From: a bacterium
GTDB lineage: Bacteria > Patescibacteriota > Saccharimonadia > Saccharimonadales > SZUA-47
Assembly: GCA_030428125.1 (NCBI GenBank)
Contig: JAUIBF010000002.1
Span: 79,910 to 143,909 of the forward strand
Direction: 5' to 3'
DNA length: 64,000 nucleotides
Numbering within the stretch: position 1 is the stretch's first letter; each line of letters opens with the position of its first letter. Both the position numbers and the translations under genes were made by a program. Below the pieces are notes generated by a model. That model was given only the letters and a program-made list of their open reading frames with translations, had not been told where the DNA came from and searched no databases. Of the stretch, positions 4,834 through 63,502 are shown one piece after another.

Positions 4834-5022
4834 ATGGATAAGTACGACCCAGGAAAAGCTTTAGTAGAAGCGATTTTAAATAACGGGAGCAGCTACGAAG
4901 ACCCTGCTACAGGAGAACTCTTGCCAAATAACGTGTTGCCGTCTACAACAGCAACATCACCAGGAGAGATTTCCGTCGACCAAGTAGCTAGAGTGTATTT
5001 CGGGCCTTTTACAGAGTCTTAA
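4834..5022 (+). CDS. Small hypothetical protein (62 aa)
   Basis: TACAAT (4822-4827) lies 6 nt upstream of the ATG. The 3-prime end overlaps the convergent Mur ligase gene by 14 nt. Confidence 0.45.
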   Translation: MDKYDPGKALVEAILNNGSSYEDPATGELLPNNVLPSTTATSPGEISVDQVARVYFGPFTES

Positions 5023-6358
5023 TTATTTTTTTAGTGGTTTCGATTTCATCCCACGGGTGTTCTTCCCATGGATGTTCTGGGTCTTTTTTGCCACCTGAAC
5101 CAACAGGTCGTTCAATTGTCTTTTCATGACCTTTACCGAGCAAAATTACAGTGTCGCCCTTTTTCGCAGTTTTTAGTGCGAACTTTAGCGCATCTGTTCT
5201 GTCTAGGATTTTGAACAAATCTCTGTCTAAAGTTTTGCCAGATTTCTCGGCACCAGATGCGATTTGGTTCATGATTTCATTTCCGTCAACATCACGGTCG
5301 TCTTCCTCGGTTACTACAACAATGTCAGAGTATTTTCCGGCAATTTCACCTTGGACTGCGCGCTTTGCTTCGTCACGACGTCCTGCAGAGCCGAACAAAC
5401 TAATAAGCCTTCCCTTCACAACTGGCCGCAAGTCCATAAATAGCTTTTTGAAACTATCTGGCGTGTGAGCAAAATCAACAATAACGTCAAAATCTTGGCC
5501 CTCATCAATGCGAGTCATACGTCCTTCAACGCTATCCAATGCAGCTATCCCCTGCTCTATTTGCTTAGGTTTTAGTCCTAGAGCTACTCCGACACAAGCT
5601 ACAGCCAGGCTGTTTGCCACGTTAAAACTACCTGGAATGTTGCAGGTGATGTTTAAATCCTGACCTTTAATCGTAACTGCATATTTACTGCCTTTAGGGG
5701 TTAGTTTCAGGTTTTTAGGGTAGGCGATGTTCTTATCATCTGACTCTTCTAGGCTATAGGCCATGACGTTTTTCACGGCATCGGCAAAATATCGTGCGTT
5801 TTCATCGTCGGCGTTTACAACTCCAAGACGCAAGCCATTTTTGGTAGCATTTGCTTGCTTAAAAAGCTTTAGTTTAGCTTTGCGATAAGCCTCGAAACTA
5901 CCGTGATAATCAAGATGCTCGTGAGTTAGATTGGTCATTACCGCGATATCAACAGGAATACCCATAGTTCGGAACTGGGCCAGAGCATGGGAGGTAACCT
6001 CTAGAACAAGAATTTCCATCCCTTTGGCTTTCATTTTTTCGAGTCGATCGAAGAGCAGACCGATTGGTTGCGAAGTCATGTGGTGAATTTGTGGTTCTAA
6101 GTCGTCACCCACTCCGAATGCAACGGTGCTCATTAAGCCAGCTTTATAGCCAGCAGAAACAAGCATTTTATGCATCATAAAACAGGTGCTGGTCTTGCCG
6201 TTTGTACCCGTCACACCGATAACTTTCAGCCCCCGAGCTGGAAATTTGTGTTTAACATTTTCTGCCACCGCAACACCGTAGTGTTTGGGCAGCACTGCTT
6301 TGTTGTATAAGCTGCCTTTTAGAGCCTTCTCGGCTATATGCTTAACGGTCTGTTTCAT
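5009..6358 (-). CDS. Mur ligase family protein, MurE-like
   Basis: 449 aa with ATP-binding loop GVTGTNGKTST and the Mur ligase central and C-terminal layout. The position of the DAP-specific DNPR motif reads EEDDRD, so substrate is unassigned. Confidence 0.8.
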   Translation of the reverse strand: MKQTVKHIAEKALKGSLYNKAVLPKHYGVAVAENVKHKFPARGLKVIGVTGTNGKTSTCFMMHKMLVSAGYKAGLMSTVAFGVGDDLEPQIHHMTSQPIGLLFDRLEKMKAKGMEILVLEVTSHALAQFRTMGIPVDIAVMTNLTHEHLDYHGSFEAYRKAKLKLFKQANATKNGLRLGVVNADDENARYFADAVKNVMAYSLEESDDKNIAYPKNLKLTPKGSKYAVTIKGQDLNITCNIPGSFNVANSLAVACVGVALGLKPKQIEQGIAALDSVEGRMTRIDEGQDFDVIVDFAHTPDSFKKLFMDLRPVVKGRLISLFGSAGRRDEAKRAVQGEIAGKYSDIVVVTEEDDRDVDGNEIMNQIASGAEKSGKTLDRDLFKILDRTDALKFALKTAKKGDTVILLGKGHEKTIERPVGSGGKKDPEHPWEEHPWDEIETTKKIIKTL

Positions 6359-8495: not shown

Positions 8496-8668
8496 ATTGT
8501 TTTAGTTACTGCTGTTTGCTTCAACTTCAGGTAAATCTTCGTACTGGAGGCTGAAGGTGATTGTAGTAGTTTCTAGTTTGGTCATTTTTGTTTTTCCTAC
8601 TTAACACCACCATTATAGCAAAAATGCAACATTTTGTCAATACACCTACCCCTGTTACAATAGAGGTA

Positions 8669-9748
8669 ATGATAGTTTTGGGTATAGAGAGTAGTTGTGA
8701 CGAGACGGCAGTCGGAATTGTTAAAGATGGTGAGGAGTTACTTGCTAATGCTGTATTTAGCTCTATGGATTTACATAAAGCATACGGAGGGGTTGTTCCA
8801 GAGATTGCTGCTCGTTCGCACATAGAAAGTATTATTCCTGTTCTAACAGAAGCTTTGAAAACCGCTTTTCCATACATGCCAGAAGACGAAGCCTGGGAGC
8901 AGATTGACGCCATTGCGGTTACACACGGAGCTGGATTGGGTGGGAGCTTGCTCGTAGGAGTTATGACTGCAAAAACACTTGCTGTTACCAAAGGTAAACC
9001 ACTGTACGCAATTAATCATGTTGAAGCACATGTTTATGCTAATTTTTTAACCAAAACTTCTCTAGAAAACTACAAATTGCCGGACAAACAGCCGGAATTT
9101 CCCCTACTCTCCCTGATTGTTAGTGGGGGCCACAGCCAGTTGGTTATTTTCAGGAACCATTTTGACTACACATTGCTGGGACAGACCAGAGATGATGCCA
9201 TAGGAGAAGCTTTTGATAAAGTAGCTAAAATTATCGGACTGCCCTACCCTGGAGGCCCAAGTGTTTCTAAAGCTGCCATGAAAGGTGATCCTAATAAGTA
9301 TAAACTGCCTAAAGCAAGACTTGATAACAAGTATGAATACAGCTTCTCTGGGCCTAAAACAGCCGTTTTACGACTTGCTCAGGAAGAAATAGGTGAAGAT
9401 TTCACATTCCCATCGTTTAAGCTAGCAGAGCGCCTCTCAGAGACTCAAGTGTGCGATATCGCGGCCAGTTTTCAGAAAATAGCTGTCGAAACAGTGGTGG
9501 ACAAGACAGTTCTAGCTTTTGAGGAGTTTGAACCGAAGTCAGTAGTTATCGCAGGTGGAGTAGCAGCTAATCAGGAGTTACGCAAGCAGCTATCAGATAG
9601 AATCCCGATAGATGTTGAGTACACCGACATAAAACTCTGTACCGATAATGGAGCAATGATTGCGACTTTGGGTTGTTTTAAGGTAATGAATGAACAAGAA
9701 GTAGCCGACCCCTACTCTCTCCAGCCTCAACCAAATCTAAGTATGTAA
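8669..9748 (+). CDS. tsaD: tRNA N6-adenosine threonylcarbamoyltransferase TsaD
   Basis: N-terminus MIVLGIESSCDETAVGIV and the Kae1/TsaD family layout throughout. TGtTACAAT (8653-8661) lies 7 nt upstream of the ATG at 8669. The ORF-track TTG at 8588 is unlikely to be the start. Confidence 0.92.
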   Translation: MIVLGIESSCDETAVGIVKDGEELLANAVFSSMDLHKAYGGVVPEIAARSHIESIIPVLTEALKTAFPYMPEDEAWEQIDAIAVTHGAGLGGSLLVGVMTAKTLAVTKGKPLYAINHVEAHVYANFLTKTSLENYKLPDKQPEFPLLSLIVSGGHSQLVIFRNHFDYTLLGQTRDDAIGEAFDKVAKIIGLPYPGGPSVSKAAMKGDPNKYKLPKARLDNKYEYSFSGPKTAVLRLAQEEIGEDFTFPSFKLAERLSETQVCDIAASFQKIAVETVVDKTVLAFEEFEPKSVVIAGGVAANQELRKQLSDRIPIDVEYTDIKLCTDNGAMIATLGCFKVMNEQEVADPYSLQPQPNLSM

Positions 9749-10132
9749 CTTTTGTTCCTTATACCAAACACCTACCCCAGAGGAGTAAAAGGGCGTACCT
9801 TCATCAGGCTCGACGAACAAATAAGGCCCTACCCTACCACCATTACGTAGTGAATCTATGATGGCTTCATTGCTTCTACTAACATCCATGTCCAATACTT
9901 TCTGCACAGTTCTTTCCGGGAATGCATCAGAGACTTGTGCTCCTTCTAGCATCCTGTATCCATTTAGATGCAGCTTCACCCCCGTCATTATGGCTTGTGT
10001 AACATCAATATTAACTAGTTCGACTTCTGGGCTAAATGGGAACTCAAAAGCATCAGCAACTTCGCTAAATATAGAAATAGCTCGACCAGAGCCAAAGTCG
10101 CTACTTAGGGGGAATTGTCTTTCGCTAGGCAT
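9737..10132 (-). CDS. Hypothetical protein
   Basis: 131-aa ORF with an ATG start. Overlaps the tsaD 3-prime end by 12 nt. No motif recognised. Confidence 0.5.
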   Translation of the reverse strand: MPSERQFPLSSDFGSGRAISIFSEVADAFEFPFSPEVELVNIDVTQAIMTGVKLHLNGYRMLEGAQVSDAFPERTVQKVLDMDVSRSNEAIIDSLRNGGRVGPYLFVEPDEGTPFYSSGVGVWYKEQKLHT

Positions 10133-10432
10133 TACATATCCGGCTGGATAAACTGCCGGATAAATAGGTGGCCCAAAAGGTGGTTTTCAACTGCTCATAG
10201 CAAAATATATTAAAATAATATGACAATAGTGTCAATGTTGTTTCTGTTTATCTTCCCTGTTATGCTTAAAATGCAAAAACAAAAAGTTAGAGAACTGTTC
10301 TGATTGACACTCAGAATCGCACATTACGAACAAAAAACGAACAGGATAGATACGTTTCCTGTTTGTGAATTCAGTTAGGGCACTTAAGACCAGGGGATGA
10401 GGGCGCGTCTTCCATTGGTTTTAGTTGCTAAA

Positions 10433-10446
10433 ATTTCACGTGAAAT
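10433..10446. promoter_or_regulatory. Perfect 14-bp palindrome ATTTCACGTGAAAT
   Basis: Read directly from the sequence. It lies about 95 nt upstream of the valS ATG in a 400-bp non-coding spacer. Confidence 0.35.
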
Positions 10447-10525
10447 CCACAAAAACTAGCCAAACCGTAGTATCTGTGGTTACGCTTAGATATAAACTTG
10501 AGATTTCGTTGTTACACAACAGGGG

Positions 10526-10534
10526 TGGTACAAT
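10526..10534 (+). promoter_or_regulatory. Extended -10 promoter (TGgTACAAT) for a leaderless valS mRNA
   Basis: The hexamer ends 7 nt before the ATG at 10542, the same geometry as many other genes in the window. Confidence 0.5.
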
Positions 10535-10541
10535 ACCTGTA

Positions 10542-13094
10542 ATGCAGTTAGGGAAAACATACATACCGGCAGACTATGAGTCGGACATCTACGATCTCTG
10601 GGAAAAAAATGAAGCTTTTGCTCCAACAGGGGGTGGAGAGCCGTTTGTTATGGTTATGCCTCCACCAAACGCCAATGCGCCTCTTCACATTGGCCACGCG
10701 CTGAATTACTCAATAATGGACGTTTTAGCTCGTTATAACCGGGCTAAAGGTAGAGACGTTTTATTCCTTCCTGGTGCCGACCACGCAGGCTTTGAAACCC
10801 AAGTGGTTTATGAGAAACATCTGGCAAAAGACGGCAAGAGTCGCTTCGATTTTAGCAGGGAAGAACTGTATTCTCAGGTCTGGGATTTTGTAGATGAAAA
10901 TAAGGGTGTATTTCAATCTCAGCTACGTTCATTTGGTGCCAGTGTTGATTGGGGTAGATTCACGTTTACTCTCGATCCAAAAGTAGTAAAAACTGCTTAT
11001 GGAACATTCAAAAAACTGTGGGACGACGGGTTAGTTTACAGAGGTGAAAGACTGGTAAACTACTGCACTCAGCACCGTACAGGATTTGCCGATATCGAAG
11101 TTGTTTACGAGGACCAAAAGACTCCACTTTATTACATGAAGTATGGTCCGTTTGAGCTAGCAACAACTCGACCAGAAACCAAGTTTGGCGACACAGCCGT
11201 AGCAGTACACCCAGATGATGAAAGATACAAAAAGTACGTTGGTAAAACTATTGAAGTTGAAGGTATTGAAGGGCAATTTGAGTTGCGTGTTGTGGCTGAC
11301 GAGATGGTGGATCCAGAGTTCGGAACTGGTGTGGTAAAAATTACCCCGGCACATGATTTTAATGACTGGGAAGTTGCACAAAGGCATAATTTAGAGGCAG
11401 TTAGGGTTATTAATCATGATGGGACATTGAATCACAGAGCAGGGAAGTTTGAAGGCATGGAAGTCAAAGAAGCCCGCAAGGAAGTAGTCAAAGCCCTTAA
11501 AGAAAAAGACTTGCTCGTTAAGGTAGACGAAAATTATCAGAATAGAGTAGGGAAGTGCTACAAGTGTGGAACTGCCATTGAGCCTATGTTGCTCGATCAG
11601 TGGTTTATCAACATGAAGAAATTGGCAGAACCAGCCATTAAAACCCTTAAAGCTGGTAAAATTAACTTCTATCCAGAGTCTAAGTGTTCGGAAACTGTTC
11701 GCTATTTAGAAAATGTTCGAGACTGGAATATAAGTCGTCAGATTGCCTGGGGTATTCCTATCCCGGCATTTCAAAATATTGATGATTCGGATGATTGGAT
11801 ATTTAACGAGAACGTTGACCAGGAAATCTTAGAAATTGACGGTAAAAAATACCGGAGGGATCCGGATGTATTCGATACCTGGTTCTCTAGTGGGCAGTGG
11901 CCATTTGTAACTTTAGATTATCCAGATGGACCTGATTTCAAAAGCTATTATCCAAATACATTGATGGAAATGGGGACAGACATTTTGTACCAATGGGGAG
12001 CACGTATGATTTGTCTCGGACTGTACGTAACAGGGGAGATTCCGTTCGAAGATATCTATTTACACGGCATGGTGCGTTCAGAAGATGGACGTAAGATGAG
12101 TAAGAGCCTCGGTAACGTAATTAGTCCACACACAGTTATCGAAGAATTTGGCTCTGACGCATTAAGAATGGGGATGATCGCGGGTAGAAGTGCAGGGGAT
12201 AGTGCAGCATTCGCACCTGCCAAGGTGGTTGCCGGTAGAAACTTCTGCAACAAGTTATGGAATGTTGCCAGGTTTATCGAGAACACCCTAGCCGGTAAAG
12301 AGGTAAAACCTGAAGCTAAGGCAGTAACTCCGGCAGACCATTGGATGCTTGAACGGCTAGAAAAAACTTCAGAAGCTTTGTCGTCACATCTAGAGAACTA
12401 CAGATTGAGTGAAGCCTACGATACGGTATATCACTTTGTGTGGGATGATTTTGCCGACTGGTATATAGAAGCAAGTAAGAGCGAAGTAAATCCTGGGCTA
12501 TTAAGCTTTGGACTAGAGTCTGTATTGAAAATGGCTCATCCTTTCGCACCATTTGTAACAGAGACAATATGGCAGACTCTAACTTGGACTGGCGACAGTA
12601 TGCTGATTAACCAAGGTTGGCCAGAAAAGGTTCATTTTGATAGTAAAAAAGCCGAAGAGTTCAGTGAAATCCAAACCATAGTAGCTGAAACTAGAGCAAT
12701 TATTTCTGCTCTAAAACTTCGTAAAACCAAGTTATTTTTCACGGATGTGCCGTTTCTTCGTGACCACGCGGAACTAATATCGGGACTGGCCAAAATACAG
12801 GGTGTTCACGAAGTAGAAGACGGCAAAGGTTTACACCTGACGACTACGAACTACACCTGCTGGCTTGATGTTGACAGAGAAACAACTGAGCACTACCTAA
12901 CTAAGCTAGAAAAACAGCTGAAGAGTGCTGAGAATGCGGCAGAAGGATTTAAAAAACGCTTGGACAACGAAGCGTATGTGAAGAAAGCACCAAAAAAACT
13001 GGTTGACGAAACCAAGAAACAGCTAGAGGATAGTGAGCAACTGATAAAAAATATTGAGATCGAGATTGAAAGATTCTCAGACCACTTCGCATAA
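10542..13094 (+). CDS. valS: Valine--tRNA ligase
   Basis: Class I motifs PLHIGHALNY (HIGH) and KMSKSLGN (KMSKS), plus DTWFSSG and a C-terminal coiled coil. ATG at 10542 is preferred over the upstream TTG at 10425. Confidence 0.95.
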   Translation: MQLGKTYIPADYESDIYDLWEKNEAFAPTGGGEPFVMVMPPPNANAPLHIGHALNYSIMDVLARYNRAKGRDVLFLPGADHAGFETQVVYEKHLAKDGKSRFDFSREELYSQVWDFVDENKGVFQSQLRSFGASVDWGRFTFTLDPKVVKTAYGTFKKLWDDGLVYRGERLVNYCTQHRTGFADIEVVYEDQKTPLYYMKYGPFELATTRPETKFGDTAVAVHPDDERYKKYVGKTIEVEGIEGQFELRVVADEMVDPEFGTGVVKITPAHDFNDWEVAQRHNLEAVRVINHDGTLNHRAGKFEGMEVKEARKEVVKALKEKDLLVKVDENYQNRVGKCYKCGTAIEPMLLDQWFINMKKLAEPAIKTLKAGKINFYPESKCSETVRYLENVRDWNISRQIAWGIPIPAFQNIDDSDDWIFNENVDQEILEIDGKKYRRDPDVFDTWFSSGQWPFVTLDYPDGPDFKSYYPNTLMEMGTDILYQWGARMICLGLYVTGEIPFEDIYLHGMVRSEDGRKMSKSLGNVISPHTVIEEFGSDALRMGMIAGRSAGDSAAFAPAKVVAGRNFCNKLWNVARFIENTLAGKEVKPEAKAVTPADHWMLERLEKTSEALSSHLENYRLSEAYDTVYHFVWDDFADWYIEASKSEVNPGLLSFGLESVLKMAHPFAPFVTETIWQTLTWTGDSMLINQGWPEKVHFDSKKAEEFSEIQTIVAETRAIISALKLRKTKLFFTDVPFLRDHAELISGLAKIQGVHEVEDGKGLHLTTTNYTCWLDVDRETTEHYLTKLEKQLKSAENAAEGFKKRLDNEAYVKKAPKKLVDETKKQLEDSEQLIKNIEIEIERFSDHFA

Positions 13095-15173: not shown

Positions 15174-15406
15174 ATACCCATTATTACACGAAAAAGCTTA
15201 TGCCTGAAATCAAACAACACTAGTAAAAAAGTTAAAAAAATGATACAATTACCCCTGTTGCGTCGACGTGTGATGGTAAGTAAGACATGCTCACAACAAA
15301 ACAAGTTTGCTTGCGAGCAGTAGCTAACTTAACAAGCCGTCTCCTTTCAAAATTCCAAACAGCTAAAAGCTTGGTTTGAAATTTTGGTAAAGCAACCCTA
15401 GCTTTT

Positions 15407-15483
15407 TAGGAAAAAGGGCAGACGGAACAGACGATTTATTCGGCTGTCCCTCTCGTTGAGAAAAAACGTAGTTTTGTCTCAAA
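15407..15483 (+). promoter_or_regulatory. Conserved intergenic element, copy A (ATTTATT-loop hairpin + GAGAAAAAACGTAGTTTTGTCTC core)
   Basis: Clearly similar over about 77 nt to 35368-35443, and the core is shared with 61270-61300. The core holds the -10-like TAGTTT (15469-74) 12 nt before the tRNA. It can also fold as a 10-bp hairpin with a GTA loop. Confidence 0.5.
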
Positions 15484-15486
15484 CTT

Positions 15487-15563
15487 GCACCCGTAGCTCA
15501 GCTGGATAGAGCGTCTGTTTGCGGTACAGGAGGTCGTGTGTTCGAATCACGCCGGGTGTACCA
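15487..15563 (+). tRNA. tRNA-Arg, anticodon GCG (manual fold), CCA encoded
   Basis: Full cloverleaf folded by hand: acceptor GCACCCG/CGGGTGT, D arm GCTC/GAGC with A20, anticodon stem TCTGT/ACAGG, loop TTGCGGT, T arm GTGTG-TTCGAAT-CACGC. The 5-prime half closely resembles the E. coli tRNA-Arg(ACG) sequence as I recall it. Confidence 0.9.
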
Positions 15564-15572
15564 TTGAAAGAG

Positions 15573-15594
15573 CCGACCAACCGGTCGGTTTTTT
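15573..15594 (+). terminator. Rho-independent terminator after tRNA-Arg
   Basis: CCGACC-AACC-GGTCGG followed by TTTTTT. Confidence 0.8.
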
Positions 15595-15610
15595 CATGTA
15601 TACTTTTTTC

Positions 15611-16143
15611 ATGAGTGAGCTTAAGCAAATAATCGGGGACTATACCACTTTTTTGAATGACATATTAAGTCGTGTGTCGGAAGAAGGTTTTGATTTTGCT
15701 GACTTTGTTCAGGTTGACCACATGTGTTACCGAACAACTTCTTTGAAAATTACGATAAAAAGAAAGCCGAGTTAGAGTCTGTCGCGAAATTAGTAGGCGA
15801 GTCTATGGTTAACGAGCGGCCAATTTCAACTTTTAGACTTAACGACCCTGTCATGCACTCACCCTGGAGGATAGATGCCATCGAGCTCCCAGCCCCGAAG
15901 ACAGGCAGTGAACATCAAGAGGGACTAGAGCATATCGAATTTGTTTTATTTGACGAAATTCCTGCCTTCTTAAATAAATACGCGGGAAAACCTTTCGAGA
16001 TGCGCGCTGCTGATAGAGGCATTAACCCAGAGATTGGCCTCCAGCTAGATAATCTATCTGTAAAATTCCATCTATTAAACTTGCCTACTGTCGTCTACCT
16101 TGAGAATAAACTTGGTATAGACGAAATTAAGGATGGGCAATAG
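15611..16143 (+). pseudogene. VOC-fold (YecM-like) protein interrupted by a single-nucleotide frameshift
   Basis: Two overlapping ORFs (15536..15775 and 15724..16143) read as one protein, ...VDHMCYRTTS|xENYDKKKAELE..., if one base is added near 15748-15752 (CTTCTTTG). Confidence 0.6.
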
Positions 16144-35334: not shown

Positions 35335-35367
35335 ATTAACGCCGAGAAAGGAGAGACTTCGCAGCTC

Positions 35368-35443
35368 TAGGGAAAAGAGCAACCAGAGCACCGGATTTAT
35401 TCCGTGCCCTGCGTGTCGAGAAAAACCGTAGGTTTGTCTTGAA
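35368..35443 (+). promoter_or_regulatory. Conserved intergenic element, copy B (fills the dnaG-rpoD spacer)
   Basis: Aligns with 15407-15483. The core is GAGAAAAACCGTAGGTTTGTCTT. An A-T pair in copy A is replaced by C-G here, a compensatory change. Confidence 0.5.
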
Positions 35444-36584
35444 TAGCGAAGCGAAAAATATTTTGCCAAAAAAGAAAGTTGAAGAACCAATAGACTTAGA
35501 AAAACGAGCAGCTGAATTGCTCGAAAAAGCTAAAAAACAGGGAAAGATTGACCAAAAAGACATCAACGAGGCCATTCCTGATAAACCAGAAAATATCGAT
35601 GCACTAGACGGGTTGTATGAGGAGCTTGCTGAGGCAAACATTACTATTACAGCAAAAGATGCTAGTGGGAAAACTCTTAGTGATGAGTGGGCTGGTGATT
35701 CGGATGACGATGAAGAAGTTGAGCCAGAAAAAGATACTCGTTACCTAGACGATGTTGCTGATGACTCAGTGCGACTATACTTGCGAGAAATTGGTAAAAT
35801 TCCACTTCTAACAGCGGAAGAAGAGCTAGCTCTAGCTAAAAAAGTTGTCGCTGGTGATAAACGAGCCAAGGACAAGATGGCAGAAGCAAACATGCGTTTG
35901 GTCGTTTCTATTGCTAAGAGATATGTAGGTCGTGGGTTAGACCTGCTTGATTTGATTCAAGAAGGAAACACAGGTCTTCTCCGTGCTGTTGAAAAGTTTG
36001 ATCCGGACAAAGGTTTCAAATTCTCGACTTACGCTACATGGTGGATTAGGCAAGCGATTACACGTGCAATCGCTGACCAGGCTAGAACTATTCGTATTCC
36101 GGTGCACATGGTTGAGACAATTAACAAACTGCTTCGTACTCAACGTCGACTAACTCAAGACCTAAACCGTGAACCAACCAATGAAGAAATTGCTGAGGCA
36201 ATGGAACTAGACGTTGAAAAAGTTGAGCACATCATGAAGATTAAGCAGGACATTAGCTCTCTAGATGCTAGTGTTCGTGATGATGAAGAAGATTCAGTGT
36301 TAGGTGATTTCATCGAAGACGAAGATACAGTAACACCTGAAGAATCAGCAACTGGACAACTACTTAAAGAGCAGGTTAAAGGATTACTTGGCAGTCTTTC
36401 TGAACGTGAACAAAAAATATTACGGCTTAGATTTGGTCTAGAAGACGGCAAGAACCACACTCTAGAAGAAGTTGGGCAGGAATTTTCTGTTACACGTGAA
36501 CGTATTCGTCAAATCGAAGCTAAGGCGCTTGCTAAGCTCAAAAAACACAAGGACTCAAAGAAATTAATGGATTACCTAAAGTAG
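35439..36584 (+). CDS. rpoD: RNA polymerase primary sigma factor (sigma-70)
   Basis: Regions 2-4 are recognisable: [40 protein letters not shown] and [24 protein letters not shown]. The start is uncertain (TTG 35439 or TTG 35463) because there is no in-frame ATG early in the ORF. Confidence 0.93.
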
Positions 36585-61131: not shown

Positions 61132-61269
61132 TATTCGTTTACTAATTCTTAATTAACAATTTGATTTTTTAAAGTCGCGCTCACTGAAAGTAATTATTGG
61201 CGAGTGGGATCATAAAAAATAAGCCCGGACGGTTTATCAGTTAGGGGATAGAGCACAGTTTGTAACATC

Positions 61270-61300
61270 CATGAACAAAAAAACGTAGTTTTGTCTCATG
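61270..61300 (+). promoter_or_regulatory. Conserved core element, copy C (AAAAAAACGTAGTTTTGTCTC) upstream of or at the pnp start
   Basis: Shares the core of the 15407 and 35368 elements. TAGTTT (61286-91) lies 6 nt upstream of the ATG at 61298. Flanking CATGA/TCATG can extend a hairpin. Confidence 0.45.
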
Positions 61301-63502
61301 ATTGTGCAATCTGAACCCTGTACCCAAACTATAAAAATGTATGTCCGGGAGAAATGGAAAAATAATATGTCTCAAATAATTAACCCAATGGGTAAAGACA
61401 TTTTAAGAGTGTCCACAGAGCTTTGTGGACAGGAACTAACACTAGAAGTTAACCGTGTTGGTTTCCGTAGCAGTGCATCAGTAATGGTCAGCTACGGAGA
61501 CACAGTGGTTCTAGGAACTGCTCAAGTTAGCAACAGGTCTGTTAACTTAGATTACTTCCCCTTAAGCATCGATTACGAAGAAAAGATGTACGCAGCAGGA
61601 AAAATCAGCGGCTCACGATTCATTAAAAGAGAAGGCCGCCCGTCAGAAGAAGCTATCTTGATTGGTAGAATTATTGACCGACCAATTCGACCGCTGTGGC
61701 CAAAAGGCTACCGTGCGGAAATTCAGGGTATCGCCACAGTTCTTAGTACTGACCCAGCTTTCCGACCTGACATGATTGCTATGATTGCTGTTTCTAGCGC
61801 TTTGATGCTAACTGGTGCCCCATACGAAGGCCCTGTGGCTGGTTTGCGTGTTGGCATGACCGAATCAGGTGAGTACAAAGCTTTCATGAGTGCCGATGAG
61901 TACGATGAGAGCAAGCTAGACCTAGTTGTAGCCGGTACAGAAAACGGTGTGATGATGGTTGAAGCTGCTGCAAATGAAGCAACCGAAGAAGAAGTATTGG
62001 AAGCAATTGCATGGGCACAAGAAGCTATGCAACCTGCCGTAAAACTCCAGAAAGAATTAGCCGAAAAGGTTGGCGTAACAGCTCAGGAATACGAGCTAAT
62101 CAAACCAAACGAAGAAATTATGAGCTCGGTTGCTACTTGGTGTGAAGGTAAACTTGGTGCCAAACTGCGCAAAGACTACCCAGAACGAAATGCAATGATT
62201 GATGACATCCGCGAGGAAATGCACGCGCATTTCGAGAAGGAAGTTGGCGAAGAAGAGTACGCAGAAGTTAAGCACGAGTACTCAGAAGCTTTCCAGTTAG
62301 CAGTTCACGCTGACTCTAGGAAAGGTATTGTTGAAGAGCAAGTCCGACCAGACGGCCGTAAAATGACCGAAATCCGTCCATTATCTAGTGAAACTGGATT
62401 CTTGCCACGAGCCCACGGTTCAAGCATCTTCACTCGTGGTGTTACACAAGGAATGAACATCGTTACTCTAGCTCCATTGAGCTTTTCACAGATTGTGGAC
62501 ACCATGGAACGAGAAGGTGAACGACGTTACATGCATCACTACAATGCTCCAGGTTGGACCGTTGGTGAAGTTAAGCGATTAGGTTCTCCTGGACGTCGAG
62601 AAATCGGCCACGGCTACCTAGCAGAACGTGCTTTGAAGCCAATGCTTCCAGACGAAGCAGAATTTCCATATGCCATAAGAAGCGTCACAGAAATCATGAG
62701 CCAGAATGGTTCAACATCTATGGCGGCAACTTGTTCTAGCTGCTTAGCACTTATGGACGCAGGTGTTCCACTGAAGAGAATGGTTAGCGGTATCGCAATG
62801 GGCTTGATGCTTGATGGTGATAAGCCATTTGTATTGAGTGACATTGCAGACGCAGAAGACTTCGCTGGTGATATGGACTTCAAGGTTACTGGTACTTCTG
62901 AAGGTATAACAGCTCTACAGATGGATATGAAAGTTCACGGACTGCCGACAGAAATCTTGGCTAAAGCTTTGATGCAGGGTAGGGAAGGACGAGCAGAAAT
63001 ACTAGCTCACATGGAATCAGTGATTAACACGCCTAAGGATATAAGTCCTTATGCGCCACGTGTTGAATCTATCCAGATTAACCCTGATAAGATTCGTGAA
63101 ATCATCGGTAAAGGCGGTGAAACAATCCAGAGAATTACTGGTGATACAGGTACCGAAATTGATATTAAGGATGACGGTACAGTAATGATTGCTAGCCCAG
63201 ATAAGGCAAAGATTGATGCAGCTATGCAAATGATTAAAGACATCGTGGCTGAGCCTGAAGTCGGGCTGATTTACCACGACAAGCCAGTTGTGTCTGTCAT
63301 GGACTTCGGAGCATTCGTACAGATTCTGCCTGGTAAAGACGGTTTAGTTCATGTAAGTGAACTATCAGAAGAACGAGTAGAAAAAGTATCTGATGTAGTT
63401 TCAGAAGGCGACAAAGTAACAGTTAAACTTGTCGCAATTGATGACAGAGGTCGTCTGCAGTTGAGTATGAAGGCTGCTAAGCGCGAACTCGAAGGTAAGT
63501 AA
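61298..63502 (+). CDS. pnp: Polyribonucleotide nucleotidyltransferase (PNPase)
   Basis: Two RNase PH-like domains plus KH and S1 domains (DFGAFVQILPGKDGLVHVSEL). The start is either the leaderless-pattern ATG at 61298 or the internal ATG at 61367 (MSQIINPMGKD), which fits my recollection of homolog N-termini better. Confidence 0.95.
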   Translation: MIVQSEPCTQTIKMYVREKWKNNMSQIINPMGKDILRVSTELCGQELTLEVNRVGFRSSASVMVSYGDTVVLGTAQVSNRSVNLDYFPLSIDYEEKMYAAGKISGSRFIKREGRPSEEAILIGRIIDRPIRPLWPKGYRAEIQGIATVLSTDPAFRPDMIAMIAVSSALMLTGAPYEGPVAGLRVGMTESGEYKAFMSADEYDESKLDLVVAGTENGVMMVEAAANEATEEEVLEAIAWAQEAMQPAVKLQKELAEKVGVTAQEYELIKPNEEIMSSVATWCEGKLGAKLRKDYPERNAMIDDIREEMHAHFEKEVGEEEYAEVKHEYSEAFQLAVHADSRKGIVEEQVRPDGRKMTEIRPLSSETGFLPRAHGSSIFTRGVTQGMNIVTLAPLSFSQIVDTMEREGERRYMHHYNAPGWTVGEVKRLGSPGRREIGHGYLAERALKPMLPDEAEFPYAIRSVTEIMSQNGSTSMAATCSSCLALMDAGVPLKRMVSGIAMGLMLDGDKPFVLSDIADAEDFAGDMDFKVTGTSEGITALQMDMKVHGLPTEILAKALMQGREGRAEILAHMESVINTPKDISPYAPRVESIQINPDKIREIIGKGGETIQRITGDTGTEIDIKDDGTVMIASPDKAKIDAAMQMIKDIVAEPEVGLIYHDKPVVSVMDFGAFVQILPGKDGLVHVSELSEERVEKVSDVVSEGDKVTVKLVAIDDRGRLQLSMKAAKRELEGK

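What the first reader, a model, noticed from the sequence alone, without database searches (positions are those of the whole stretch)
15407..15483. Conserved ~80-nt intergenic element upstream of tRNA-Arg, rpoD and (core only) pnp, with a covarying hairpin overlapping a -10-like CGTAGnTT box
Copy A (15407-15483) and copy B (35368-35443, essentially the whole dnaG-rpoD spacer) align over about 77 nt. Roughly two-thirds or more of positions are identical by eye.

Both contain a hairpin with an identical ATTTATT loop, followed by GAGAAAAA(A/C)CGTAG(T/G)TTTGTCT. Copy C (61270-61300, rpsO-pnp spacer) shares only the core, AAAAAAACGTAGTTTTGTCTC.

The core can fold as a 10-bp stem with a GTA loop. 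Between A and B, an A-T pair becomes C-G, and a terminal G-C becomes G-T. Both changes are consistent with a conserved RNA structure.

The same core contains TAG(T/G)TT, a TAnnnT -10 candidate placed 12 nt before the tRNA, 4 nt before the rpoD TTG and 6 nt before the ATG at 61298. Related CGTAG-type boxes precede 23710, lie in the valS spacer (10471) and lie upstream of polA (43940).

The three contexts are classic RNA-processing or autoregulation junctions in other bacteria. The element could therefore be a shared growth-related promoter, an endonuclease processing hairpin, or both.
Basis: partly seen in the sequence, partly recalled or inferred. Interest (0 to 1): 0.55.

Follow-up and report, generated by a model that had tools for sequence, protein, structure and literature searches.

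The report
Structured insertion element of Saccharibacteria RNAs
The repeat upstream of tRNA-Arg, rpoD and pnp is real, but it is not a promoter: it is a ~75-base self-folding module, found almost only in Saccharibacteria and undescribed in Rfam or the searched literature, that has been inserted into already transcribed non-coding RNA (tRNA leaders, gene spacers and, in other genomes, 23S rRNA).

Summary
The 19-mer core occurs exactly three times (chance 0.12). Copies A and B share 55 of 77 aligned positions. Copy C is a degenerate full copy, not core only.

A covariance model built from 73 copies in other genomes defines the element:
- a purine tail, AGGGAAAAGAGCA;
- a variable covarying hairpin (P2/P3);
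- a conserved hairpin P1 (xTGAGA-A-AAACC GUA GGUUU-G-UCUCAx).

In this structure 92.8% of cells are paired, against 34-45% in slid controls. No Rfam family matches.

About 100 of the 119 genome loci that carry the core also carry the full element. These are Candidatus Saccharibacteria, or Peribacteria with a shorter form.

The -10 reading fails. The "TAGnTT" box lies in a loop and stem whose sequence is replaced in other copies while pairing is kept. The tRNA-Arg locus has its own conserved extended -10 promoter upstream.

The element is an insertion:
- Six relatives with 85-95% identical RpoD have a 10-34 nt dnaG-rpoD spacer without it.
- One relative has the tRNA-Arg promoter abutting the tRNA.
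- In oral TM7 the element sits in helix 25 of 23S rRNA, the classic intervening-sequence site.

Best reading: an IVS-like or structured-repeat element that is co-transcribed and probably trimmed away. Cleavage and mobility are inferred, not shown.

The parts
15408..15482 (+). Copy A, the complete element in the leader of pre-tRNA-Arg(GCG)
   Evidence: cmsearch gives 75.2 bits, E 1.4e-17. The fold is tail + P2/P3 + P1.
15408..15420 (+). Copy A purine tail AGGAAAAAGGGCA (5-A variant)
   Evidence: The tail is conserved at 1-2 bits per position across the family, and conservation starts sharply at this A. Its A-run length matches the P1 A/T-run length.
15421..15454 (+). Copy A P2/P3 hairpin (loop ATTTATT)
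   Evidence: These pairs covary in the family: for example, columns 18-47 show CG 46, GC 12, AU 10.
15456..15482 (+). Copy A P1 hairpin TTGAGA-A-AAAAC GTA GTTTT-G-TCTCAA, with a conserved A.G mismatch (15462.15476)
15241..15259 (+). Extended -10 promoter-like block TGaTACAAT + TACCCCTGTT, the likely promoter of the tRNA-Arg unit
   Evidence: The block is conserved in L041 and L047 upstream of the element, and in L232 directly before the tRNA with no element. No start-site mapping is available.
15487..15563 (+). tRNA-Arg(GCG), which starts 4 nt after P1
   Evidence: ARAGORN and Rfam.
15565..15596 (+). Canonical intrinsic terminator of the tRNA-Arg unit
   Evidence: A 14-pair stem followed by a T run.
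35369..35442 (+). Copy B, the complete element inserted in the dnaG-rpoD spacer
   Evidence: 94.1 bits, E 2e-22. It is absent from the 10-34 nt spacers of six syntenic relatives and present in the relative with 97% identical RpoD.
35369..35381 (+). Copy B tail AGGGAAAAGAGCA (4-A consensus type)
35382..35414 (+). Copy B P2/P3 hairpin
   Evidence: Compensatory differences from the L231 orthologue are seen.
35416..35442 (+). Copy B P1 hairpin TCGAGA-A-AAACC GTA GGTTT-G-TCTTGA (G35418.T35440 wobble)
35347..35353 (+). AAAGGAG, the probable ancestral rpoD Shine-Dalgarno, now separated from the start codon by the element
   Evidence: In relatives without the element, AAAGGAG lies 7-9 nt before the rpoD start.
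35357..35362 (+). CTTCGC, complementary to GCGAAG at 35447-35452; an optional closing helix around copy B
   Evidence: With its flanks the element folds as a closed three-way junction, -37.9 kcal/mol, z -3.4. Such flank pairing is not general: 12 of 111 copies have z below -2.
35446..35452 (+). GCGAAGC motif 4 nt after P1
   Evidence: It recurs after many copies that lie next to ORFs.
35463..36584 (+). rpoD, with its probable real start at TTG 35463
   Evidence: Gene call in the Logan record, alignment with the ATG of L025, and Pfam Sigma70 regions 1.1-4.
61243..61300 (+). Copy C, a degenerate copy without P2/P3 in the rpsO-pnp spacer, about 67 nt before the pnp start (ATG 61367)
   Evidence: 25.8 bits, E 6e-5, aligned over the whole model. 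S15 and PNPase are confirmed by Pfam.

Best explanation
**What it is**
Copy A is one of three copies in this window of a roughly 75-nt self-folding module. The module is specific to Candidatus Saccharibacteria, and a shorter form occurs in Peribacteria and Peregrinibacteria. Its parts, from 5' to 3', are:
- a conserved purine tail, AGGGAAAAGAGCA;
- a variable hairpin that keeps its pairing through compensatory changes (P2/P3);
- a conserved hairpin P1, with an invariant A.G mismatch.

**Where it sits**
It is not a promoter. It is a piece of sequence that has been inserted into non-coding stretches that are already transcribed:
- here, the leader of pre-tRNA-Arg, downstream of that gene's own promoter;
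- the dnaG-rpoD spacer, between the old ribosome-binding site and the start codon;
- the rpsO-pnp spacer;
- in other genomes, helix 25 of 23S rRNA.

**How it most likely works**
It most likely behaves like an rRNA intervening sequence or a structured intergenic repeat. It is copied into new sites and transcribed with the host RNA. It folds on itself, so it does not disturb its host. It is then removed or left behind by ordinary RNA processing: RNase P at the tRNA 5' end, and RNase III-type cleavage where longer stems form.

**Shown**
- the family and its fold;
- its taxonomic range;
- presence/absence at the same site in close relatives;
- its position downstream of independent promoters.

**Inferred**
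- that it is cleaved out;
- how it spreads;
- that the tail contacts P1 (a triple helix or an alternative pairing).
For: **Family and fold**
- The core is enriched in CPR. Of 119 genome loci with the 19-mer, about 89 are labelled Saccharibacteria, Saccharimonadia, TM7 or Patescibacteria, 12 are Peribacteria or Peregrinibacteria, 9 more carry the element under other or no labels, and 9 are bare chance matches.
- On 73 copies, 92.8% of cells are paired, against 34-45% when partners are slid.
- There are 233 double-change cells, against 24-59 in the slid controls.
- 0 of 500 shuffles reach the observed covariation score.
- No Rfam family matches, even at E up to 10.

**Insertion polymorphism**
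- The dnaG-rpoD spacer is 10-34 nt and lacks the element in six syntenic relatives with 85-95% identical RpoD. There are no model hits above noise in their 140 kb.
- The relative with 97% identical RpoD has the element at the same site.
- The tRNA-Arg(GCG) site is empty in L232. The same promoter block is present in L232, L041, L047 and the window.
- Only 2 hits occur across all 80 retrieved ribosomal-protein loci (31 from close relatives), although L019 and L030 carry three each.

**Transcribed in sense**
- 30 Saccharibacteria copies lie 3-11 nt upstream of a co-oriented tRNA, against one copy with the opposite arrangement.
- Canonical -10 boxes lie upstream of these copies at variable distance.
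- In L065, L075 and L085 the element lies in sense inside 23S rRNA at helix 25. It is closed by CCGGGAT/ATCCCGG and folds into a long stem (-61.6 kcal/mol, z -6.6).
- PMC11270868 reports that 64 of 66 rRNA insertions in Saccharibacteria are short and intron-less. It also finds that short non-intron insertions across CPR cluster at two known IVS sites and are probably RNase III-cleaved IVS.

**Tail-P1 link**
- The tail A-run equals the P1 T-run plus 1 in the 77 consensus copies and in 16 of about 21 variants.
- Different matched types occur within one genome: window A versus B, L096, L031, L036, L017, L103.
Against: - No transcript or cleavage data exist. P1 and P2/P3 in the window copies are 13 bp or shorter, less than a typical RNase III substrate.
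- No terminal inverted repeats or target-site duplications were found, and flank pairing is not general. No mobilising enzyme was identified.
- The near-invariant tail and P1 across two phyla, and the recurrence before the same genes in different species (tRNA-Arg x3, tRNA-Met x7, rpsR x3, ssb x3), would also fit a host function.
- Strand evidence is mixed. G.U outnumbers A.C 42:17 in the covarying pairs (14:2 even in convergent contexts). However, a conserved A.C at columns 20/45 (50 of 73) would be G.U on the other strand, and the antisense minimum free energy is lower in 79 of 118 copies.
- Next to protein genes the orientation is nearly 1:1 (40 co-oriented, 34 convergent), so many copies are not in any leader.
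Confidence: 0.45

Rival explanations
1. The element is a host-beneficial cis-acting RNA. It is a conserved leader or spacer module that binds a conserved factor, or forms an exonuclease-blocking 5' structure through a tail-P1 triple helix. It marks or stabilises the 5' ends of highly expressed RNAs: tRNAs, ribosomal-protein, chaperone, ssb, rpoD and pnp transcripts.
For: - The tail and P1 are very strongly conserved across two phyla.
- 30 of about 105 Saccharibacteria copies precede tRNAs, which make up only a few percent of genes.
- Co-oriented protein genes are mostly housekeeping or translation genes: rpsG, rplD, rplB, rplP, rpsQ, rplN, rpsR, ssb, groEL, dnaK, hrcA, efp, trmD, rpoD, pnp (identities assigned by eye from N-termini).
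- The same genes recur in different species.
- Tail and P1 covary.
Against: - Close relatives express the same genes without it.
- About a third of copies face convergent genes or lie antisense between co-directional genes.
- The orthologous rpoD copy in the 97% relative has a decayed P1 core, with 5 of 19 core positions changed.
- There is no terminator or sequestered ribosome-binding site of the kind an expression platform would need.
Confidence: 0.25
2. The element acts at the DNA level. It is a REP/RAYT-like or IS200/IS605-like (PATE) or MITE-like repeat that folds as single-stranded DNA and is mobilised by a transposase. Any RNA structure is incidental.
For: - Presence is patchy among close relatives.
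- It occurs in both orientations next to protein genes.
- Discrete hairpin subfamilies are shared between genomes.
- Another unrelated structured repeat fills spacers in L139.
- The d(GCGAAGC) motif, known from my own knowledge as an unusually stable DNA mini-hairpin, often follows the element.
- A GTAG tetranucleotide lies in the core. REPs carry a conserved GTAG (my knowledge).
Against: - No terminal inverted repeats or target-site duplications were seen.
- Orientation is not tied to GC skew: 48 loci positive, 46 negative.
- Orientation relative to tRNAs is 30:1, and the copy in rRNA is in sense. That points to a constraint set by transcription.
- G.U pairs are tolerated on one strand.
- No Y1 transposase was looked for or found.
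Confidence: 0.15
3. The functional strand is the opposite one. Read in antisense, the element is two hairpins followed by UGCUCUUUUCCCU. That would be an intrinsic terminator or a 3'-end element whose pyrimidine tail could form U.A-U and C+.G-C triples with the first hairpin.
For: - In most Peribacteria copies, including three next to tRNAs, and in 35 Saccharibacteria copies, the P1 side abuts the 3' end of an opposite-strand gene or tRNA.
- The antisense fold is more stable in 79 of 118 copies.
- The conserved A.C at columns 20/45 becomes G.U in antisense.
- In L071 a perfect TATAAT for the next gene follows the antisense tail.
Against: - 70 Saccharibacteria copies, including all three in this window, lie upstream of co-oriented genes, where an antisense terminator has no transcript to act on.
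- In antisense intercistronic copies the next start codon is only 3-33 nt away, so termination would silence that gene.
- The simple terminator scan does not flag the element, whereas the real terminator after tRNA-Arg has a clean T run.
- The G.U:A.C ratio is 14:2 in favour of the sense strand even in convergent contexts.
Confidence: 0.1
4. The element is a shared promoter whose -10 box is TAG(T/G)TT.
For: - It sits immediately upstream of tRNA and gene starts.
- TAnnnT is present in the consensus.
- In copies with GTCTTATAAG or GTCTTATATT, the pair ATGAGA-18-TATAnn reaches 9 of 12 in the simple scan.
Against: - The box is replaced in other copies while the helix is kept.
- Hairpin insertions of variable length lie between the conserved blocks.
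- Independent canonical promoters lie upstream.
- No promoter-like site is found within the window copies.
- One third of copies point into convergent genes.
- Helices that would lie upstream of the supposed start site show compensatory evolution.
Confidence: 0.04

Closest known systems
23S rRNA intervening sequences (IVS; helix 25 and helix 45 insertions excised by RNase III)
   Same: - It is a short (about 75-135 nt), ORF-less, self-folding insertion that is sporadic among close relatives.
- One subfamily sits exactly at helix 25 of 23S rRNA in oral TM7 and folds into a long closing stem.
- CPR and Saccharibacteria rRNA genes are reported to carry such short non-intron insertions (PMC11270868).
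   Different: - Most copies are outside rRNA: in tRNA leaders, operon spacers and gene ends.
- The sequence is conserved across a phylum and has a single-stranded purine tail.
- Excision and rRNA fragmentation have not been shown.
- The window copies have stems of 13 bp or less.
Structured dispersed intergenic repeats (REP/BIME; Correia, ERIC, BOX and RUP-type MITEs)
   Same: - It is a multi-copy, intergenic, hairpin-forming repeat.
- It is co-transcribed with neighbouring genes.
- It shows presence/absence polymorphism.
- It occurs in both orientations next to protein genes.
   Different: - No terminal inverted repeats or target duplications were found.
- It is conserved at the phylum level rather than the species level.
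- Its orientation is strict in front of tRNAs (30:1).
- It has three helices with compensatory evolution.
Cis-regulatory leader RNAs (riboswitch or protein-binding leaders; Rfam Cis-reg families such as lysM-TM7)
   Same: - It is a conserved, covarying fold of 75-80 nt, located 5' of genes in several copies per genome.
- It is lineage-restricted.
   Different: - No Rfam family matches.
- It precedes tRNAs.
- It has no expression platform.
- Close relatives lack it at the same genes.
- Many copies are not in a leader.
Intramolecular triple helices (H-DNA mirror repeats; ENE/MALAT1-type RNA triplexes)
   Same: - The tail (G(m+1) A(n) GAG) is the mirror image of the purine strand of P1 (GAG A(n+1) C(m)).
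- The two change together. In Peribacteria, GGGAAAAGAGAG pairs with GAGAGAAAAACC.
   Different: - This is purely an inference from sequence.
- On the sense strand it would be a purine-motif triplex, which is rare in RNA.
- A direct-repeat reading, in which the tail competes with the P1 5' strand for the 3' strand, fits the same data.

Membership tests
Sigma-70 promoter | A -35 and a -10 hexamer 16-18 bp apart | tested here: not met
   No promoter-like site lies within copies A, B or C. A pair (ATGAGA-18-TATATT) was flagged in L031, which has the GTCTTAT variant.
Sigma-70 promoter | Conservation of the -10 hexamer sequence itself | tested here: not met
   TAGGTT is replaced in L019, L030, L036, L096, L031, L072 and L017, while the helix is kept.
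Sigma-70 promoter | Transcripts initiate 5-9 nt downstream of the -10 box | not testable with these tools
   No transcript data are available. Independent promoters lie upstream.
Structured RNA family with conserved secondary structure | Compensatory base changes that maintain the helices, above controls | tested here: met
   - 14 of 22 pairs show double changes.
- 233 double-change cells are seen, against 24-59 in slid controls.
- 0 of 500 shuffles reach the observed score.
Structured RNA family with conserved secondary structure | A single functional strand (G.U tolerated, A.C not) | tested here: inconclusive
   G.U:A.C is 42:17 in favour of the sense strand. A conserved A.C at columns 20/45 and lower antisense minimum free energy point the other way.
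Any Rfam 15 family | A score at or above the family's gathering threshold | tested here: not met
   Only tRNAs pass in the window. Nothing overlaps the element meaningfully at E up to 10.
23S rRNA intervening sequence (IVS) | Insertion at the apex of helix 25 or helix 45 of 23S rRNA | tested here: met
   This is met for the L065, L075 and L085 copies only. There the element lies between the ...CAAGGAGTCGGAGCC and TGACGGCGTGCTTTTTGTAG... segments, which I matched by eye to E. coli 23S positions around 530-600. The window copies are not in rRNA.
23S rRNA intervening sequence (IVS) | A long closing stem that RNase III can use as substrate | tested here: inconclusive
   The L065 insertion folds into a stem of more than 20 bp, z -6.6. 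The window copies have stems of 13 bp or less. Copy B has an optional 6-bp closing helix.
23S rRNA intervening sequence (IVS) | Excision from the mature RNA without re-ligation | not testable with these tools
   This needs RNA data.
MITE | Terminal inverted repeats and target-site duplication | tested here: not met
   The ends are AGGGAAAAG... and ...GTCTCAT. Flank-to-flank pairing is no better than shuffles overall (p 0.2). No duplication is seen at the two empty/filled site pairs.
MITE / mobile repeat | Presence/absence at orthologous sites in close relatives | tested here: met
   This holds at the rpoD site, the tRNA-Arg site and the ribosomal-protein spacers.
REP / RAYT system | Association with a Y1 (RAYT) transposase gene | not tested
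   No search for RAYT genes was made.
Intrinsic terminator (opposite strand) | A GC-rich hairpin followed at once by a U run, located 3' of a gene on that strand | tested here: not met
   This is not met for the window copies, which all lie 5' of co-oriented genes. The simple scan does not flag the element. The context does fit in Peribacteria and in 35 Saccharibacteria copies.
Riboswitch / attenuator leader | An expression platform (a terminator or a sequestered ribosome-binding site) coupled to the aptamer | tested here: not met
   Conservation stops 3 nt after P1. No terminator follows, and 30 copies precede tRNAs.

The most novel reading that the evidence does not exclude
The element is an autonomous RNA fold in which the 5' purine tail docks on hairpin P1, forming a triple helix or knot-like structure. 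It would be used as a portable processing or exonuclease-stop signal, and it would spread by a still unknown mechanism, possibly coupled to transcription or mediated by RNA. Its targets would be transcribed non-coding RNA specifically: pre-tRNA leaders, operon spacers and 23S helix 25. If so, it would link the unexplained short rRNA insertions of CPR bacteria to a genome-wide mobile RNA module.
Probability: 0.15. Interest if true: 0.85.

Novelty: new variant of a known kind. Interest (0 to 1): 0.6.

Why it matters
Saccharibacteria and other CPR bacteria have tiny genomes yet carry many unexplained short insertions in their rRNA genes. This family shows that at least one such insertion type is not confined to rRNA. 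The same 75-nt fold also sits in tRNA leaders, and even between the ribosome-binding site and the start codon of the essential rpoD gene. It comes and goes between relatives whose RpoD proteins are 95-97% identical.

That makes three questions directly testable in the Saccharibacteria strains that can now be transformed:
- how these insertions spread;
- how they are tolerated or removed;
- whether the cell has put them to use.

For genome annotation, the element explains over-long spacers. It also flags mis-called starts: the NCBI rpoD start lies inside the hairpin.

Tried and rejected
- **Rfam.** Searches at gathering and at E up to 10 on copies A and B and on a Peribacteria copy found nothing.
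- **Literature.**
  - A full-text search for the core and tail sequences found nothing relevant.
  - Searches for Saccharibacteria motifs, promoters and start sites described no such element.
  - The lysM-TM7 motif of Weinberg 2017 is different.
- **TM7x promoter cassettes** (Cell 2023, Table S4) do not contain the element.
- **Viral contigs.** 23 hits to the 19-mer were found. All but one (L218) are coding-sequence or chance matches, so the element is not phage-borne.
- **A promoter at a fixed distance upstream of the element.**
  - There is no information content from -60 to -7.
  - TAnnnT positions show no peak.
- **A -10 box just downstream of P1.** Conservation ends at +3.
- **Orientation set by replication.** GC skew on the element strand is positive in 48 loci and negative in 46.
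- **A general closing helix or terminal inverted repeat from the flanks.** Pairing is no better than shuffles.
- **A regular feature of ribosomal-protein operons.** Only 2 hits were found in 80 loci.
- **Hammerhead-like GAUGAG core and a boxA-like antisense tail (UGCUCUUU).** I considered both from memory. I dropped them because no Rfam model hits, and because the antisense orientation does not fit leaders.
These are chance pentamers.
- **Naming the window organism from the loci.** This failed, as the best DNA identities were only 66-86% over short segments. Named RpoD and YecM homologues place it in Saccharibacteria / Saccharimonadia.
Full report

Yes. The 19-mer AAAAAMCGTAGKTTTGTCT occurs exactly three times in the window, at 15461, 35421 and 61278, all on the + strand. 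With up to 3 mismatches allowed the chance expectation is 0.12, and no shuffle reached 3.

Copies A and B align without difficulty. In the family alignment they share 55 of 77 columns. Both have a hairpin with loop ATTTATT, followed by GAGAAAAA(A/C)CGTAG(T/G)TTTGTCT.

- A-T in A versus C-G in B;
- G-C in A versus G.T in B.

Gene identities were confirmed by Pfam: DnaG, RpoD, S15, PNPase and ValS.

Four corrections:
- Copy C is a degenerate complete copy (61243-61304, 25.8 bits, E 6e-5). It has a recognisable tail AGGGGATAGAGCA but no middle hairpin.
- The rpoD start is probably TTG 35463, not the TTG at 35439 inside the stem.
- The pnp start is ATG 61367, not 61298.
- The other "CGTAG boxes" are just one of 84 occurrences of that pentamer, and they do not score with the model.

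**2. What is it? A family, not a local repeat.**

I scanned one genome per species for the core, leaving its two variable positions free.
- about 89 are labelled Saccharibacteria, Saccharimonadia, TM7 or Patescibacteria;
- 12 are labelled Peribacteria or Peregrinibacteria;
- 9 more carry the full element under other or no labels (probably mis-binned);
- 9 are bare chance matches without flanks.

RpoD and YecM homologues of the window proteins are named Candidatus Saccharibacteria or Saccharimonadia, so the window belongs to that phylum.

Outside the core that was used for the search, the flanks are also conserved. The consensus is aGGGAAAAGAGCAG-CCCGAg-[variable hairpin]-cCCGGCGCG-aTGAGA-AAAACCGTAGGTTTG-TCTCAt.

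Conservation begins sharply at the A before GGG and ends 3 nt after GTCT. The unit therefore has crisp ends and is about 75 nt long.

**3. Structure.**

RNAalifold and a hand-extended structure on 73 copies give three helices: P2, P3 and P1. The counts are:
- 92.8% of cells are paired, against 34-45% when the 3' partners are slid.
- 233 cells have changes on both sides, against 24-59 in the slid controls.
- 0 of 500 shuffles reach the observed covariation score.
- Individual pairs switch freely. Columns 18-47 show CG 46, GC 12, AU 10. Columns 21-44 show GC 42, CG 18, AU 6.

P1 carries an invariant A.G mismatch, in 73 of 73 copies.

A covariance model (R1) run with filters off finds only the three copies in the window. 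In the loci it finds about 20 further copies that lack the exact core. These are the informative ones.
- The apical loop and inner helix of P1 are not invariant. Variants include GTCA and GTGA loops, ACCCA-GAA-TGGGT, CCGC-GTTA-GCGG and insertions of 30-50 nt. The helix is kept in every case.
- In Peribacteria the middle hairpin is missing. The tail then abuts P1 directly: AGGGAAAAGAGAG-CCCAT-GAGAGAAAAACC....

A module that tolerates a hairpin of 0, 30 or 50 nt between its two conserved blocks works as a folded single strand, not as duplex DNA.

No Rfam family matches at any threshold. Neither the sequence nor the motif turned up in the literature held here.

**4. A link between the tail and P1.**

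The tail reads G(m+1) A(n) GAG. The purine strand of P1 reads GAG A(n+1) C(m). The two change together:
- GGGAAAAGAG goes with GAGAAAAACC/GGTTT (77 copies);
- GGAAAAAGAG goes with GAGAAAAAAC/GTTTT (12 copies, including window A);
- GGGAAGAG goes with GAGAAACCC/GGGT (3 copies);
- GGAAAGAG goes with GAGAAAACC.../..GGTT;
- in Peribacteria, GGGAAAAGAGAG goes with GAGAGAAAAACC.

About 16 of 21 variant copies obey the rule. Different matched types coexist in one genome: window A versus B, and L017, L031, L036, L096 and L103.

The independent events are few, roughly four, and subfamilies are inherited as units. This is therefore suggestive, not proof.

Two physical readings fit equally well:
- a mirror-repeat triple helix (purine motif on the sense strand, or U.A-U / C+.G-C on the antisense strand);
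- a tail that mimics the P1 5' strand and can pair with the P1 3' strand (7 of 8 positions pair, with two G.U pairs and the same A.G mismatch).

I could not separate them.

**5. Not a promoter.**

Four lines of evidence argue against it.
- The supposed -10 box is replaced in other copies.
- Saccharibacteria promoters are canonical. The TM7x tuf promoter used for heterologous expression is TTTACA-17-TATAAT and contains no element (PMC10633639 Table S4).
- For copy A itself, an extended -10 block, TGaTACAAT followed by TACCCCTGTT (15241-15259), is conserved upstream of tRNA-Arg(GCG) in the window, L041 and L047. It lies about 158, 18 and about 90 nt before the element. In L232 the same block (TGATAGCAT-ACCCCTGTTAATGT) runs straight into the tRNA with no element. 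So the tRNA has its own promoter, and the element lies inside the leader transcript.
- No -10-like signal sits at a fixed distance upstream of the element or downstream of P1. The simple promoter scan finds nothing in the window copies.

**6. It is an insertion.**

I fetched the dnaG-rpoD junction from syntenic relatives.
- Six relatives with 85-95% identical RpoD have spacers of only 10-34 nt, most containing a Shine-Dalgarno sequence. They lack the element, and their 140 kb contains no model hit above noise.
- The relative with 97% identical RpoD (L231, GCA_041618555.1) has the element at the same place with the same flanks.

In the window the old AAAGGAG (35347-35353) now lies upstream of the element. 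About 100 nt were therefore inserted between the ribosome-binding site and the start codon of an essential gene.

The L231 copy has compensatory differences in P2/P3 but a decayed P1 core (5 of 19 positions changed). This shows weak constraint at this locus.

Ribosomal-protein clusters tell the same story:
- L019 and L030 carry three copies each.
- L120 has no spacers at all.
- L139 has one copy plus four copies of an unrelated ~110-nt repeat.
- All 80 retrieved loci together, 31 of them from close relatives, gave 2 hits.

**7. Contexts.**

I classified 135 model hits using simple ORF calls and ARAGORN.
- In Saccharibacteria, 30 copies lie 3-11 nt upstream of a co-oriented tRNA. One copy has the opposite arrangement.
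- Next to protein genes the orientation is nearly even: 40 co-oriented and 34 convergent. Seventeen copies lie antisense between two co-directional genes.
- The convergent neighbours are real genes: FtsH, MurA, MraY, MurJ, SSB, NrdR and others (identified by eye from the translations).
- Co-oriented neighbours include rpsG, rplD, rplB, rplP, rpsQ, rplN, rpsR, ssb, groEL, dnaK, hrcA, efp and trmD, besides rpoD and pnp (by eye).
- In most Peribacteria copies, including three next to tRNAs, the P1 side faces the 3' end of an opposite-strand gene or tRNA.

Orientation is not tied to GC skew.

Strand evidence is mixed:
- In the covarying pairs, G.U outnumbers A.C 42:17 on the sense strand. The ratio is 14:2 even in convergent contexts.
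- However, a conserved A.C at columns 20/45 would be G.U in antisense.
- Antisense folds are slightly more stable.

**8. The rRNA connection.**

In three MAGs of oral TM7 (L065, L075, L085) the element lies in sense inside the 23S rRNA gene. It sits between segments that I matched by eye to E. coli positions around 530 and 560, which is helix 25, the classic site of RNase III-excised intervening sequences.
- The insertion is closed by CCGGGAT/ATCCCGG.
- It folds into a long stem (-61.6 kcal/mol, z -6.6) in which an extra 5' arm pairs with the P1 3' strand.

A 2024 survey states two things (PMC11270868):
- 64 of 66 rRNA insertions in Saccharibacteria are short and intron-less.
- Short non-intron insertions across CPR cluster at two known IVS sites and are probably IVS.

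It does not describe this family or its copies outside rRNA. A second context (L003, L010) has an antisense copy inside another 23S insertion, upstream of an ORF.

**9. Most likely mechanism.**

Putting this together, the element is best described as an IVS-like structured insertion. It lands in transcribed non-coding positions, is co-transcribed, folds on itself and is tolerated. It is probably trimmed off by host nucleases. At tRNAs, RNase P would release it together with the leader.

Copy B with its flanks folds as a closed three-way junction (z -3.4). That would bring the old Shine-Dalgarno closer to the start codon, which may be why the insertion is tolerated there. This last point is inference.

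What is shown:
- the family and its fold;
- its taxonomic range;
- the empty and filled sites;
- the independent upstream promoters.

What is inferred:
- cleavage;
- the way it spreads;
- the tail-P1 contact.

I put 0.45 on this reading. The rivals are:
- 0.25: a host-beneficial leader or processing RNA. This is favoured by the extreme conservation, the tRNA bias and the recurrence at the same genes. It is disfavoured by the empty sites and the convergent copies.
- 0.15: a DNA-level REP- or MITE-like repeat.
- 0.10: an antisense terminator or 3'-end element. This fits Peribacteria and a third of the Saccharibacteria copies, but none of the window copies.
- 0.04: a promoter.

**10. Novelty and verdict.**

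The thing is real, structured and phylum-wide. It is absent from Rfam and from the literature I could search. In behaviour it resembles known kinds (rRNA intervening sequences and structured intergenic repeats), but several features together are new:
- its distribution across tRNA leaders, mRNA spacers and 23S helix 25;
- its strict orientation before tRNAs;
- the tail-hairpin covariation.

I rate it a new variant of a known kind, with interest 0.6. The processing-hairpin half remains open.

Noticed in passing
L139:7215-7329, 9886-10000, 10415-10532, 11209-11323: A different ~110-nt structured repeat (GTAAAATGCTACAGCATTTTAGGAGTGAGGAGATAGGAGTGCG...GACTGAAAGGAGC) fills four spacers of a Saccharibacteria ribosomal-protein cluster. 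It supplies the Shine-Dalgarno of the next gene. A close relative (L120) has no spacers at all.
   Followed up: partly
window:15241-15259; L232:5947-5968; L233:9846-9865; L015, L086, L059 upstream regions: Saccharibacteria tRNA genes share a promoter layout: a good or extended -10, then 4-6 nt, then CTGTT. When no element is inserted, the tRNA begins only about 13-14 nt after the -10.
   Followed up: partly
window:35446-35452 and many loci (e.g. L008, L048, L064, L092, L095, L139): The motif GCGAAGC or GGCGAAGCC follows P1 by 3-8 nt in many copies next to ORFs. It also opens the Peribacteria version. In a few copies it pairs with an upstream GCTTCGC (window B, L092, L095).
   Followed up: partly
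L065:3889-3979 (also L075, L085): The element lies in sense inside the 23S rRNA gene of oral TM7 (HOT-348, UBA1103) at helix 25, within a ~135-nt insertion closed by CCGGGAT/ATCCCGG.
   Followed up: yes
L003:499-578; L010:3054-3169: A copy lies antisense to 23S rRNA inside another rRNA insertion. It sits about 100 nt upstream of an ORF of about 426 aa (MERARHVIKS...), whose identity was not determined.
   Followed up: no
window:35439-35463: The NCBI copy of this RpoD (P0001, 381 aa) starts at TTG 35439, inside hairpin P1. Another gene call and the L025 orthologue favour TTG 35463.
   Followed up: partly
window:15611-16143: YecM-family homologues are 177 aa, but the mechanical ORF starts at GTG 15724 (139 aa). 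The real start is probably the ATG near 15611, just after the tRNA-Arg terminator.
   Followed up: no
window:1-9000: GC skew and gene orientation both change sign near 8 kb (the cumulative skew minimum). No dnaA was seen there: a Mur ligase lies at 5009-6358 and TsaD at 8588-9748. This could be an origin or terminus, or just a strand switch.
   Followed up: partly
L218:947-988 (IMG/VR contig); L046:4206-4254: One minimal, Peribacteria-like copy lies on a 19-kb viral contig. Another lies on a contig binned as Aenigmatarchaeota. Either could be real transfer or mis-binning.
   Followed up: no
L113:5167-5566: Three copies lie within 400 nt: a sense copy, then tRNA-Leu, then an antisense copy abutting the tRNA 3' end, then a sense copy, then tRNA-Val. 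This is the only Saccharibacteria case of an antisense copy directly behind a tRNA.
   Followed up: partly
window:15565-15596: A textbook intrinsic terminator (14-pair stem plus a T run) follows tRNA-Arg. This shows that the organism uses canonical terminators.
   Followed up: yes
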